From a phage: 64,000 nucleotides of DNA. Shown here piece by piece: positions 57,275 to 58,594 of this stretch. Within the stretch, counting starts at the first letter, position 1. Every line of letters begins with the position of its first letter. The translations under genes were made by a program, and so were the position numbers. A model generated the notes under the pieces. That model did no database searches. It was not told the origin of the DNA and was given only the letters and a program-made list of their open reading frames with translations. The stretch lies in assembly GCA_022979955.1 (NCBI GenBank), contig GCA_022979955.1_3642.1; one strand, 5' to 3'.

Positions 57275-57303
57275 TTGACAAACTTTGCTTAACAGTGTAA
57301 TAT
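57275..57303 (+). promoter_or_regulatory. sigma70-like promoter TTGACA-N17-TAATAT upstream of tRNA cluster
   Basis: hexamers read directly. Confidence 0.45.
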
Positions 57304-57732: not shown

Positions 57733-57830
57733 CATTGTTGACCTTGTAATTAAGCGAAAGCCGGAAGCAGAACCGGATTATCAAATGTTACAGTCGTCAT
57801 CGCCGACTAGCAACATGGTCAACATACTGA

Positions 57831-57927
57831 GCTAGGTAAGCCCTTTGGCAAGGGCGAGGATTTTTAATCCTGAAAATAGACGAGGTAGTCGTTGAATACA
57901 TAGGTGGTTCGATTCCACCGCCTAGCA
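57831..57927 (+). tRNA. atypical tRNA-like gene (anticodon loop TTTTTAA, nominal Lys-UUU) with about 30-nt extra arm
   Basis: acceptor GCTAGGT/GCCTAGC, D-arm GCCC-TTTGGCAA-GGGC, T-arm GGTGG-TTCGATT-CCACC; 4-bp anticodon stem; no encoded CCA. Confidence 0.35.
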
Positions 57928-57933
57928 CCTTTT

Positions 57934-58009
57934 GCTGATGTAGCACAATTGGCAGTGCAATTGATTTGTAATCAATAGGTTGCAGGTTCAAGTCCTGCCA
58001 TCAGCACCA
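57934..58009 (+). tRNA. tRNA-Thr (anticodon UGU)
   Basis: acceptor GCTGATG/CATCAGC, anticodon stem ATTGA/TCAAT with loop TTTGTAA, T-arm GCAGG-TTCAAGT-CCTGC, CCA encoded. Confidence 0.75.
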
Positions 58010-58544: not shown

Positions 58545-58575
58545 GCCCCGTTAGCTGTATAGCTGCGGGGTTTTT
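58545..58575 (+). terminator. rho-independent terminator
   Basis: GC hairpin CCCCG...CGGGG followed by TTTTTTCGTTT. Confidence 0.5.
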
Positions 58576-58594
58576 TCGTTTCTGGAGCCTTAAA

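What the first reader, a model, noticed from the sequence alone, without database searches (positions are those of the whole stretch)
57831..57927. Atypical tRNA-like gene with a 30-nt extra arm inside the tRNA cluster
Between tRNA-Ser and tRNA-Thr lies a sequence with perfect acceptor, D- and T-arms (T-loop TTCGATT) but only a 4-bp anticodon stem (loop TTTTTAA, nominal UUU). It carries about 30 nt between anticodon and T-arm, far longer than normal, and no encoded CCA. It may be a pseudo-tRNA, a tRNA with an unusual insertion, or a tRNA-like regulatory or decoy RNA.
Basis: seen in the sequence. Interest (0 to 1): 0.55.

Follow-up and report, generated by a model that had tools for sequence, protein, structure and literature searches.

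The report
Conserved five-armed tRNA-like phage RNA
The odd "tRNA" is a real, strongly conserved tRNA-shaped RNA gene found in the tRNA clusters of about 200 virulent enterobacterial phages; its anticodon end is not conserved, so it probably acts as a tRNA mimic rather than a decoder, and its function is unknown.

Summary
Window 57831-57929 (+) encodes a 99-nt RNA with a 7-bp acceptor stem, D arm, T arm (TTCGATT), a short anticodon-like hairpin (AGGA/UUUUUAA/UCCU), 31 nt between that hairpin and the T arm, and a 3' end of A-CC-T (no CCA).

The window is an rV5-like Vequintavirus. The element is not a decaying pseudo-tRNA. Homologues occur in every Vequintavirinae genus sampled, in Stephanstirmvirinae, and in one N4-like Salmonella phage that gained it as a clean 113-nt insertion.

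Across 24 distinct sequences, 99.6% of cells pair and 12 of 22 pairs show compensatory changes. These include the tertiary elbow pair G19:C56, which becomes U:A.

Conserved features are the acceptor/T half, the D arm, the stem of the anticodon-like hairpin, and two purine-rich linkers (GAAAA, AAUAC). The "anticodon" loop varies in length and sequence (UUU, UAU, UCC, GCC, UCA). The extra hairpin is swapped as a cassette between otherwise identical bodies.

Best reading: a tRNA mimic that is matured like a tRNA, does not decode, and binds a tRNA-recognising factor. I favour a decoy for tRNA-targeting defence nucleases. In this lineage the hairpin copies UUUUAAUC of E. coli tRNA-Lys(UUU), which carries the PARIS AriB site. 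Function is inferred, not shown. No matching Rfam family or paper was found.

The parts
57275..57303 (+). sigma-70-like promoter (TTGACA-17-TAATAT) upstream of the whole tRNA cluster. It is the presumed source of the polycistronic transcript that contains the element.
   Evidence: 10 of 12 consensus matches. Use of this promoter is inferred, not shown.
57831..57929 (+). The whole tRNA-like gene ('X'), 99 nt including the discriminator A and CC.
   Evidence: ARAGORN; Rfam tRNA 31.0 bits; family model R1 scores 106 bits, E=1e-25.
57831..57837 (+). Acceptor stem, 5' strand (GCTAGGT). It pairs with 57920-57926.
   Evidence: 7 pairs, 100% paired in 24 sequences, 4 pairs with compensatory changes.
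57840..57855 (+). D arm: GCCC / TTTGGCAA / GGGC. It may form a 6-bp stem with a 4-nt loop (UGGC) through the invariant pairs U14-A21 and U15-A20a.
   Evidence: 3 of 4 stem pairs are compensatory. The minimum-free-energy folds extend the stem to 6 bp. The extension pairs never vary, so they are untested.
57857..57871 (+). Anticodon-like hairpin AGGA-UUUUUAA-UCCU, flanked by G57856 and G57872. It is 15 nt, against 17 nt in a canonical tRNA.
   Evidence: The stem is conserved with compensatory changes: pair 1 is A-U or G-C, and pair 4 is A-U, U-A or C-G. The loop differs between lineages in sequence and length.
57872..57879 (+). 5' linker GAAAATAG. GAAAA is conserved in nearly the whole family; UTK0002 has GUAAAA.
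   Evidence: Invariant columns.
57880..57892 (+). Extra ('variable-arm') hairpin ACGA-GGTAG-TCGT.
   Evidence: A hairpin is present in every homologue but its sequence is unrelated between classes. In Av-05 it is ACGG/CCGT, a compensatory change.
57893..57902 (+). 3' linker TGAATACATA. AAUAC is invariant in all lineages.
57903..57919 (+). T arm GGTGG-TTCGATT-CCACC. C57910 (position 56) is the partner of D-loop G57848 (position 19).
   Evidence: 3 of 5 stem pairs are compensatory. The tertiary pair is G:C in 19 sequences and U:A in 5, and is never unpaired.
57920..57926 (+). Acceptor stem, 3' strand (GCCTAGC).
57927..57929 (+). Discriminator A73 plus CC. The next base is T, so the terminal A would have to be added after transcription.
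   Evidence: Most other lineages encode U73-CCA.

Best explanation
X is a gene for a tRNA-shaped non-coding RNA that belongs to an undescribed family carried in the tRNA arrays of virulent enterobacterial phages.

Shown here: it has an acceptor stem, D arm, T arm and the D-loop/T-loop elbow pair of a tRNA, all maintained by compensatory evolution. It also has a short anticodon-like hairpin, and an extra hairpin held between two conserved purine-rich linkers (GAAAA... and ...AAUAC).

Inferred: it is transcribed with the neighbouring tRNAs from the early sigma-70 promoter. RNase P cuts its 5' end. The ACC-UUUU tail is trimmed and completed to CCA by the host CCA-adding enzyme, and the RNA folds into an L shape.

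The anticodon-like loop changes in length (5 to 8 nt) and sequence between lineages, and usually lacks U33. The extra hairpin is exchanged as a cassette. As a family, therefore, the RNA most likely does not decode codons. It more likely works by occupying a protein that recognises tRNA shape.

My preferred mechanism, which is inference only, is a decoy or competitor for tRNA-targeting anti-phage nucleases. Under that reading the two variable hairpins are the parts that track the enemy. In the window's lineage the hairpin reproduces U33-C40 (UUUUAAUC) of E. coli tRNA-Lys(UUU). This includes the UAAUC motif next to the PARIS AriB cut site, but with C41, a change that inhibits cleavage in tRNA-Lys.
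For: Distribution:
- The window is an rV5-like Vequintavirus, 99.7% identical to phage LL12.
- Homologues are present in Vequintavirus, Avunavirus, Seunavirus, Mydovirus and Henunavirus, in about 31 Stephanstirmvirinae, in metagenomic contigs, and in one Schitoviridae phage.

Structure:
- In 24 distinct sequences 99.6% of cells are paired.
- 12 of 22 pairs carry compensatory changes.
- The covariation score is 0.430 against 0.157 in shuffles (0 of 500 reach it) and at most 0.10 when partners are slid.
- The tertiary pair G19:C56 becomes U:A in 5 sequences.
- Every homologue folded gives the same five-arm shape.

Selection: identity between lineages is 0.63-0.91, similar to 0.59-0.92 for the neighbouring genuine tRNA-Thr.

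Non-decoding signature:
- The triplet at the anticodon position is UUU, UAU, UCC, GCC or UCA.
- Loops are 5-8 nt, and position 33 is A or C in most lineages.
- KB57 and GAP31 have 100% identical bodies but unrelated extra hairpins.

Autonomy: UTK0002 differs from its relative FSL SP-076 by a clean 113-nt insertion of X alone, with no protein gene.

tRNA-like maturation: X starts 2 nt after the CCA of the upstream tRNA in most lineages, and most members encode U73-CCA.

Decoy idea:
- It needs U16, and is inhibited by A41C.
- The authors propose that phage tRNAs may form non-productive complexes with effectors (PMC12409363).
- X has UAAUCC and a run of U's in the D loop that would supply U16 (14-16 by my numbering). 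It sits next to tRNA-Thr(UGU) here, and next to tRNA-Asn(GUU) in UTK0002.
Against: There is no expression, processing, charging or binding data for any family member. The mechanism is entirely inferred.

The AriB-like motif exists only in the Vequintavirus and Avunavirus lineages, so it cannot explain the family. UAAUC also occurs in tRNA-Met(CAU), as the window's own copy shows, and AriB does not cleave tRNA-Met.

The most conserved parts, the two purine-rich linkers, are not explained by a decoy model. Variability of the loop and hairpin could reflect lack of constraint rather than an arms race.

In this window the loop is a canonical 7-nt loop (U33, UUU, A37) and the discriminator is A73, both Lys-like. 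A decoding role in this lineage is therefore not excluded.

Phage V18 has lost the 5' half of X through a deletion, so the element is dispensable at least in some settings.
Confidence: 0.45

Rival explanations
1. X is a working, if unusual, decoder. In this lineage it would be a tRNA-Lys(UUU) with an oversized variable arm, for example a surrogate that survives tRNA-Lys-targeting nucleases. In other lineages it would read AUA (UAU), GGN (UCC, GCC) or UGA (UCA), like the anticodon-drifting 'allo-tRNAs'.
For: The window copy has a canonical 7-nt loop U32 U33 UUU A37 A38. It has discriminator A73 where most relatives have U73. UUU plus A73 are E. coli LysRS identity elements (my own knowledge). 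Several GenBank annotators, using tRNAscan-SE, call it tRNA-Lys. rV5-like phages have no other tRNA-Lys. UUU and UAU fit the set of A-ending codons that phage tRNAs typically read. Most members encode CCA. Long-variable-arm tRNAs with drifting anticodons have been proposed as suppressors or regulatory RNAs (PMC5389517).
Against: The anticodon arm is 15-16 nt, not 17: either 4 bp or a G.G mismatch with no N26. Seuna and Mydo members have 6-nt (or 8-nt) loops. Most lineages have A or C at position 33. The triplet changes between near-identical bodies: KE22 has UCC and NINP13076 has UCA. The discriminator varies (A, U, C) and the 3' tail varies (CCA, CC-U, ACA, UCA, CCC), so no single synthetase identity is kept. 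LL12's annotator flagged the tRNAscan isotype as inconsistent. Stephanstirmvirinae carry X as well as a normal tRNA-Lys(ttt).
Confidence: 0.25
2. X is a structural or processing element. As a tRNA-shaped punctuation mark, it recruits RNase P and 3' trimming enzymes so that the polycistronic tRNA transcript is cut correctly or stabilised. It has no function of its own after release.
For: X is always embedded in tRNA arrays, usually 2 nt after the CCA of the upstream tRNA or 4 nt before the next tRNA. Its acceptor/T half, the part recognised by RNase P, is the best-conserved half.
Against: Neighbouring tRNAs are themselves RNase P substrates and need no extra signal. The neighbours of X differ between lineages (Ser/Thr, Thr/Ile, Leu, Ser/Asn). 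The invariant linkers, the D arm and the elbow pair would not be needed for punctuation. Acquisition of X alone between two already adjacent tRNAs in UTK0002 argues for a function of its own.
Confidence: 0.1
3. X is a base-pairing regulatory RNA displayed on a tRNA scaffold. The conserved single-stranded linkers or the extra-hairpin loop would act as a seed against a host or phage RNA.
For: The linkers are invariant. The class-D hairpin loop GAAYUAACAGUA is conserved on five different bodies while its stem covaries: GCC/GGC, GUC/GAC, AGUC/GACU, AGCG/CGCU.
Against: The complement of the 3' linker is not enriched in the window (7 matches against 6.2 expected). The 5' linker 8-mer is enriched on both strands (9 against 2.8), but most copies have the same sense as X, so they are not targets. 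Hairpin loops of the other classes share no sequence. No target was identified.
Confidence: 0.07
4. X is a degenerating tRNA pseudogene, or a chance cloverleaf with no function.
For: Phage tRNA arrays do contain degenerate tRNAs, for example the ARAGORN 'tRNA-???' calls in 4MG and VLCpiM5b. X scores only 2 bits above the Rfam tRNA threshold. V18 has lost part of it.
Against: 99.6% of cells are paired, with 12 compensatory pairs, across lineages whose X sequences are only 63-75% identical. Conservation equals that of a genuine tRNA. The linkers are invariant. X spread horizontally into another phage family.
Confidence: 0.03

Closest known systems
Class II (long variable arm) tRNAs and tRNA-Sec (Rfam RF00005, RF01852)
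   Same: 7-bp acceptor stem, 5-bp T stem with a UUCGAUU loop, the G19:C56 elbow pair, a hairpin between the anticodon arm and the T arm, and a position in a tRNA operon. Possibly a 6-bp D stem with a 4-nt loop, as in tRNA-Sec. A UCA triplet occurs in several lineages.
   Different: The anticodon arm is 15-16 nt and its loop is not conserved. The extra hairpin hangs on 8-nt and 10-nt conserved purine-rich linkers, rather than emerging directly from the core. A8 replaces U8. The acceptor/T arrangement is 7/5, not 8/5. There is no G73. Rfam scores are 31 bits (tRNA) here and 39 bits (tRNA-Sec, gathering score 47) in Hena1 and UTK0002. There is no hit at all for the Stephanstirmvirinae copy.
Allo-tRNAs (8/4 and 9/3 cloverleaf tRNAs; Mukai et al. 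2017, PMC5389517)
   Same: A conserved body with a long variable arm and many different anticodons. Found in bacteria and phages. Proposed to be suppressors and/or regulatory non-coding RNAs.
   Different: X has the canonical 7/5 acceptor/T arrangement. It has non-7-nt loops and lacks U33 in most lineages. The conserved linker motifs are not an allo-tRNA feature.
Phage anti-defence tRNAs, e.g. [quoted passage not shown]
   Same: Encoded in the tRNA array of a virulent coliphage. In this lineage the hairpin resembles the tRNA-Lys(UUU) anticodon stem-loop, with a change at position 41 like the resistant T5 variant. X sits next to tRNA-Thr(UGU).
   Different: The T5 molecules are canonical, chargeable tRNAs that replace the cleaved host tRNA. 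X has a remodelled anticodon half and an extra arm, and no experiment links it to any defence system.
T4 stable RNAs 'species 1' and 'species 2' (rnaC, rnaD) in the T4 tRNA cluster (my own knowledge, not checked here)
   Same: Small stable RNAs of unknown function encoded inside a phage tRNA operon and processed with the tRNAs, with tRNA-like termini.
   Different: No sequence relationship was tested. Those RNAs are longer and are not full cloverleaves.
Bacterial tRNA mimics: Y-RNA-like YrlA (PMC4201824) and B. cereus tRNA-Other (PMC3399842)
   Same: RNAs that copy tRNA arms, do not act in translation, and work through tRNA-binding proteins or regulation.
   Different: In YrlA the tRNA-like module is internal to a Ro-binding stem. 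X is closed by a terminal acceptor stem with a discriminator and CC(A). There is no Rfam YrlA hit on X. X is confined to phages.

Membership tests
Canonical elongator tRNA (RF00005) | 7-bp acceptor stem, 4-bp D stem, 5-bp T stem with a GTTCRANYC loop, and the G18/G19-T-loop elbow | tested here: met
   All stems pair fully, and G19:C56 covaries to U:A.
Canonical elongator tRNA (RF00005) | 5-bp anticodon stem plus a 7-nt loop with U33 and a purine at 37, kept among orthologues | tested here: not met
   The window copy has 4 bp plus a 7-nt loop, or a G.G mismatch with N26 missing. Across the family, loops are 5-8 nt, position 33 is A or C in most lineages, and the triplet is UUU, UAU, UCC, GCC or UCA.
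Canonical elongator tRNA (RF00005) | Variable region of 4-5 nt (class I) or a hairpin of roughly 10-24 nt emerging directly from the core (class II) | tested here: not met
   The region is 31 nt here and 38-41 nt in other lineages, counting the linkers with the hairpin. It has conserved 8-nt and 10-nt linkers on either side of the hairpin.
Canonical elongator tRNA (RF00005) | Score above the Rfam gathering threshold | tested here: inconclusive
   31.0 bits against a threshold of 29 in the window. The Hena1, UTK0002 and KE22 copies hit only tRNA-Sec, below threshold. The Stephanstirmvirinae copy has no hit at E<=0.5.
Canonical elongator tRNA (RF00005) | Aminoacylation and use on the ribosome | not testable with these tools
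   This needs charging assays or tRNA sequencing. The discriminator (A, U, C) and 3' tail vary between lineages.
tRNA-Sec (RF01852) | 13-bp acceptor/T domain (8/5 in bacteria), G73 and a UCA anticodon | tested here: not met
   The arrangement is 7/5. The discriminator is A73 or U73. The triplet is UUU here, and UCA only in some lineages, where it comes with A33. The best score is 39 bits against a threshold of 47, no better than genuine tRNA-Ser scores on the same model.
tRNA-Sec (RF01852) | 6-bp D stem with a 4-nt D loop | tested here: inconclusive
   The minimum-free-energy folds form it. U14-A21 and U15-A20a are invariant in 24 sequences, so there is no covariation for or against.
Allo-tRNA (8/4 or 9/3) | A 12-bp acceptor branch split 8/4 or 9/3 | tested here: not met
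   The split is 7/5, supported by covariation in every pair that varies.
tmRNA | A tRNA-like domain plus a tag reading frame | tested here: not met
   ARAGORN reports no tmRNA. The insert is a non-conserved hairpin, too short for a tag frame.
Y-RNA-like YrlA (RF02553) | Match to the family model, with a Ro-binding stem enclosing the tRNA-like module | tested here: not met
   There is no hit on X. The only YrlA hit (25 bits against a threshold of 69) spans tRNA-Met and tRNA-Pro.
Phage anti-defence tRNA or decoy (functional class) | Neutralises a tRNA-targeting immune effector | not testable with these tools
   Only a resemblance exists: UUUUAAUC and C41 compared with the AriB site described in PMC12409363.

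The most novel reading that the evidence does not exclude
X defines a new class of phage counter-defence RNA. It would be a self-contained, horizontally mobile tRNA mimic whose conserved L-shaped body and purine-rich core dock onto tRNA-targeting immune effectors (for example the PARIS AriB Toprim nuclease in E. coli). Its two swappable hairpins, the anticodon-like loop and the extra-arm cassette, would set which effector or host tRNA is mimicked. It would act as an RNA decoy with exchangeable specificity modules.
Probability: 0.2. Interest if true: 0.85.

Novelty: new variant of a known kind. Interest (0 to 1): 0.62.

Why it matters
tRNAs have recently emerged as major targets of bacterial anti-phage systems, including PARIS, PrrC, RloC and retrons Eco2 and Ec78. 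Phage tRNA genes are being reinterpreted as counter-measures.

X is a conserved, structured member of those tRNA arrays, about 100 nt long. Gene finders mostly miss it, or label it inconsistently as tRNA-Lys, tRNA-OTHER, tRNA-TERM or 'hypothetical protein'. It appears not to decode.

If it is a decoy or inhibitor, it would be a compact RNA-only anti-defence module with exchangeable parts. Several of the phages in which it was found here are therapy or biocontrol candidates infecting E. coli, Salmonella, Klebsiella, Cronobacter and Erwinia.

Whatever its function, it deserves an RNA family of its own. That would let it be annotated consistently and stop it being counted as a lysine or suppressor tRNA.

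Tried and rejected
- **ARAGORN's four-base anticodon 'atcc' fold.** Rejected. Its stem (ATTTT/AAAAT) has no counterpart in homologues, whereas the AGGN/NCCU hairpin covaries.
- **tRNA-Sec or opal suppressor.** The arrangement is 7/5 rather than 8/5, there is no G73, position 33 is A, and the score is below threshold.
- **Kissing interaction between the anticodon-like loop and the extra hairpin.** UCCA/UGGA pairing, and GCCA/UGGC in 4MG, looked suggestive by eye. However, the UGGAG motif lies in the hairpin stem, and classes A, D and the Stephanstirmvirinae hairpin lack it. Dropped.
- **H-type pseudoknot UUUU(loop):AAAA(linker).** Possible only in the rV5 type, so not a family feature.
- **Linkers as an antisense seed.** The complement of the 3' linker is not enriched in the window.
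- **Wider search for relatives.**
  - A 15-mer and a gapped pattern in IMG/VR gave mostly noise. The weak model hits L149 and L101 are not homologues.
  - The GTDB genomes scan gave 0 matches.
  - 5,426 E. coli genomes gave 0 matches.
  - PLSDB gave one record, which is a mis-filed rV5-like phage.
  - The metagenome scan added only L231 and Stephanstirmvirinae-like contigs.
- **Literature.** Six completed full-text searches (a seventh failed on a term-length error) and several papers read in part contained no description of this element.
- **Protein partner by co-transfer.** The UTK0002 insertion carries no ORF. The ORFs that overlap X in the window are short and are incompatible with the compensatory pattern.
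Full report
**Observation.** The sequence at 57831-57929 on the + strand reads: GCTAGGT AA GCCC TTTGGCAA GGGC G AGGA TTTTTAA TCCT GAAAATAG ACGA GGTAG TCGT TGAATACATA GGTGG TTCGATT CCACC GCCTAGC A CC, followed by TTTT and then tRNA-Thr. Every detail in the finding is correct:
- The acceptor, D and T arms are perfect, with one U.G wobble at pair 7:66.
- There is a 4-bp anticodon-like stem with loop TTTTTAA.
- 31 nt separate that stem from the T arm.
- There is no encoded CCA, whereas the six flanking tRNAs (Arg, Tyr, Ser, Thr, Met, Pro) all encode it.

ARAGORN reports the element as 'tRNA-??? (atcc)'. The Rfam tRNA model scores it 31.0 bits, 2 bits above threshold. To do so it deletes position 26, accepts a G.G mismatch at 27:43, and inserts 26 nt in the variable region.

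**Context.** The window is an rV5-like myovirus (Vequintavirus, 99.7% identical to Escherichia phage LL12). A sigma-70-type promoter (TTGACA-17-TAATAT, 57275-57303) precedes the cluster. The order is Arg, Tyr, Ser, X, Thr, Met, Pro, then a small ORF and a terminator-like hairpin near 58546-58578 (seen in the sequence). GenBank annotators label X as tRNA-Lys ('isotype prediction inconsistent'), tRNA-OTHER, tRNA-TERM or tRNA-???(atcc), or do not annotate it at all.

**A family, not an accident.** BLAST and pattern searches recovered homologues from:
- about 114 rV5-like genomes;
- Avunavirus Av-05 and 18-1-2;
- about 65 Seunavirus, Mydovirus and Henunavirus genomes, including Cronobacter phages (loci);
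- about 31 Stephanstirmvirinae, where it is never annotated as an RNA;
- a few IMG/VR and metagenome contigs.

It is absent from 185,579 GTDB genomes by pattern. It is also absent from 5,426 complete E. coli genomes. The single PLSDB hit is a 137.6-kb rV5-like phage filed as a plasmid. The family is therefore confined to virulent phages of Enterobacterales.

One member sits in an unrelated N4-like phage, Salmonella phage UTK0002 (Schitoviridae). Alignment with its relative FSL SP-076 shows a clean 113-nt insertion of X alone between tRNA-Ser(tga) and tRNA-Asn(gtt). The junctions lie in the CCA-AAT(T) spacers. Other Ithacaviruses appear to lack it too: they matched in two pieces spanning about 181-188 nt of the 301-nt query. 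X therefore moves as a single gene with no protein partner. Conversely, phage V18 carries a deletion that fuses the 5' part of tRNA-Tyr to the 3' part of X.

**Structure.** I aligned 21 and then 24 distinct sequences (A1; A3, which is model-fitted). I counted pairs for the cloverleaf plus the tertiary pair D-loop position 19 with T-loop position 56. The results were:
- 99.6% of 528 cells are standard pairs.
- 12 of 22 pairs show changes on both sides.
- The covariation score is 0.430, against 0.157 +/- 0.015 in shuffles (0 of 500 reach it) and at most 0.10 for slid partners. The MAFFT-only alignment gives the same picture.
- Compensatory pairs occur in the acceptor stem (4 of 7), D stem (3 of 4), T stem (3 of 5) and the outer anticodon-like stem.
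- G19:C56 becomes U19:A56 in all five sequences whose D loop is TTTGTCAA and whose T loop is TTAGATT. This is direct evidence for a tRNA-like elbow, and hence an L shape.
- The fourth pair of the anticodon-like stem is A-U, U-A or C-G, depending on lineage.

Each sequence folded on its own gives the same five-arm cloverleaf. The D arm may be a 6-bp stem with a 4-nt loop, but the two extra pairs never vary, so this is untested. Identity between lineages is 0.63-0.91, comparable with 0.59-0.92 for the neighbouring genuine tRNA-Thr(UGU). Decay is excluded.

**What is conserved and what is free.**

Conserved features:
- G1:C72 and A8.
- The D arm, with U14, U15 and A20a, A21.
- G26.
- The anticodon-like stem.
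- A 5' linker beginning GAAAA.
- A 3' linker containing AAUAC, mostly (U)GAAUACAUA.
- The T arm.

Variable features:
- The anticodon-like loop. It is UUUUUAA in the rV5 type and UUUAUAA in Av-05. It is CAUCCA, CAGCCA, CCUCCA or CCUCAA on a 5-bp stem in Seunavirus and Mydovirus. It is CAUCAAA in Henunavirus, UTK0002, L231, the L062 type and Stephanstirmvirinae, and this form is probably ancestral.
- The triplet at the anticodon position, which is UUU, UAU, UCC, GCC or UCA. It differs even between near-identical bodies: KE22 has UCC and NINP13076 has UCA.
- The extra hairpin, which behaves as a cassette. KB57 (Mydovirus) and GAP31 (Seunavirus) have 100% identical 5' (47 nt) and 3' (36 nt) bodies but unrelated hairpins.
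- The 'class D' hairpin. Its loop GAAYUAACAGUA is conserved while its stem covaries (GCC/GGC, GUC/GAC, AGUC/GACU, AGCG/CGCU). It sits on five different bodies.
- The 3' ends. U73-CCA is encoded in most lineages. The rV5 type has A73-CC-U, Avunavirus has U73 or C73 followed by ACA, and Stephanstirmvirinae have U73-UCA or U73-CCC.
- Spacing: X usually begins 2 nt after the CCA of the upstream tRNA.

**Interpretation.** The conserved half is the half read by RNase P, the CCA-adding enzyme, the 3' exonucleases and elbow-binding factors (established tRNA biology, my own knowledge). Maturation like a tRNA is therefore the natural inference.

The anticodon end is the least conserved part of the molecule. 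This is the opposite of what is expected for a decoder, and the arm is 1-2 nt shorter than canonical. As a family, X is best described as a tRNA mimic that does not decode. The invariant purine-rich linkers must either build an unusual core under the extra arm or form a binding site, and I could not tell which. Read outward from the hairpin, they can be drawn as an irregular helix (G-U, A.G, U-A, A.A, A-U, ...). With no variation in these positions, this cannot be tested.

[quoted passage not shown] It needs U16 in the D loop. It is blocked by U39A and inhibited by A41C. The authors suggest that phage tRNAs may also compete by forming non-productive complexes (PMC12409363).

With the G.G pair counted as 27:43, the window's hairpin reads U33 UUU A37 A38 U39 C40 C41. 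It therefore shares UUUUAAUC with the host tRNA-Lys(UUU) but has C41. The D loop starts with UUU. The discriminator is A73 rather than the family's usual U73. X is adjacent to tRNA-Thr(UGU) here, and to tRNA-Asn(GUU) in UTK0002.

This fits either a decoy or a nuclease-resistant surrogate for tRNA-Lys in the E. coli-specific lineages. It remains a resemblance only. UAAUC also occurs in tRNA-Met, which AriB does not cut. The motif is absent from the other lineages. Nothing links Vequintavirinae to PARIS in the papers read.

Separately, the Seunavirus and Mydovirus forms carry UCC or GCC together with U73, G1:C72, C2:G71 and CCA. That is a partly tRNA-Gly-like identity set (my own knowledge), though 3:70 is never G:C. 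I leave this unexplained.

**Comparison with known families.** X fails defining features of a canonical tRNA (anticodon arm, variable region, conserved anticodon). It fails those of tRNA-Sec (8/5 arrangement, G73, score), allo-tRNAs (8/4 or 9/3), tmRNA and YrlA. In its setting it most resembles the small stable RNAs of unknown function in the T4 tRNA cluster (my own knowledge). In concept it resembles tRNA mimics such as YrlA and B. cereus tRNA-Other (PMC4201824, PMC3399842), and phage anti-defence tRNAs (PMC11464382, PMC12409363). Six completed full-text searches found no description of it.

**Verdict.** The element is a genuine, conserved and horizontally mobile tRNA-like RNA gene, and a new variant within the broad class of tRNA mimics and non-canonical tRNAs.
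- That it is a functional structured RNA: confidence about 0.95.
- That it is a non-decoding mimic acting on a tRNA-binding factor: about 0.45.
- That this copy decodes AAA as an odd tRNA-Lys: about 0.25.
- The specific PARIS or defence-decoy reading: about 0.2.

Expression, end mapping, charging state and deletion phenotypes on defence-carrying hosts would settle the question.

Noticed in passing
window 57748-57832: The spacer between tRNA-Ser(tga) and X is 83-88% identical to an unannotated stretch of phage lambda (44866-44952, between orf-64 and S) and of phage P7 (72367-72432). In P7 it also lies just 3' of a tRNA-Ser(tga). This suggests a shared 'tRNA-Ser(UGA) plus trailer' module that moves between unrelated coliphages.
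   Followed up: partly
GenBank MG0656xx records (hits H11-H14, H19-H20, H43, H46-H50); PLSDB CP057073.1: Nineteen records named 'Campylobacter phage' are 98-99% identical to E. coli rV5-like phages over this region. A 137,565-bp 'E. coli plasmid' is an rV5-like phage genome. Both are probably mislabelled deposits.
   Followed up: no
L198 (Escherichia phage EmilieFrey) 1408-1486: A second odd tRNA-like gene lies about 70 nt downstream of the X homologue, behind a TTGACA...TATAGT promoter-like site. Rfam tRNA scores it 38.6 bits, but ARAGORN and the GenBank annotation miss it. By eye it appears to have a TCT anticodon, a long variable region and an irregular D region.
   Followed up: no
L006 1351-1425; L005 2763-2832; L003 1419-1494: Other irregular tRNAs occur in the same arrays. 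ARAGORN reports 'tRNA-???' with two-base anticodons in VLCpiM5b and 4MG. KE22 has a 'tRNA-Ile(gat)' whose anticodon loop reads ACGATTC, without U33.
   Followed up: no
L003 1605-1796; L005 1538-1729; L002 1300-1480: A stretch of about 190 nt between X and tRNA-Leu(taa) is conserved between KE22 and 4MG (a related stretch follows X in Av-05). It contains tRNA-fragment-like sequence (for example GCATTAGCTCAG, GGTCGTAGAGCGCC...GGTGGAGTCACC). It could be degenerate tRNAs or another RNA.
   Followed up: no
window, 9 sites (e.g. 6228, 9639, 38087, 42664, 52441 on +; 7499, 49412, 61026 as complement): The 5' linker 8-mer GAAAATAG and its complement occur 9 times in the window against 2.8 expected (0 of 100 shuffles reach 9). 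This may simply be oligonucleotide bias.
   Followed up: no
L231 2791-2865: A 28-kb metagenomic phage contig that carries X also encodes a tRNA with a CTA anticodon (ARAGORN 'tRNA-Pyl'), which is an amber-suppressor-type tRNA, among 17 tRNAs.
   Followed up: no
L004 (Escherichia phage V18) about 1455-1546: A deletion joins the 5' part of tRNA-Tyr to the 3' part of X (GTCGTTGAATACATAGG...) and removes tRNA-Ser. This shows that X can be lost.
   Followed up: partly
window 57934-58009 versus L003, L072, L198 tRNA-Thr(tgt): The window's tRNA-Thr(UGU) keeps the exact AriB-type site UGUAAUCAA (U36AAUC|A41). The tRNA-Thr(UGU) of the Seunavirus, Mydovirus, Avunavirus, Henunavirus and Stephanstirmvirinae phages compared have changes at positions 39 or 40 (UAAGCA, UAAGGA, UAAUGA) (motif from PMC12409363).
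   Followed up: no
window about 59279 onward (LL12 CPT_LL12_064): The LL12 annotation marks the terminase large subunit gene, just downstream of the cluster, as containing an intron.
   Followed up: no
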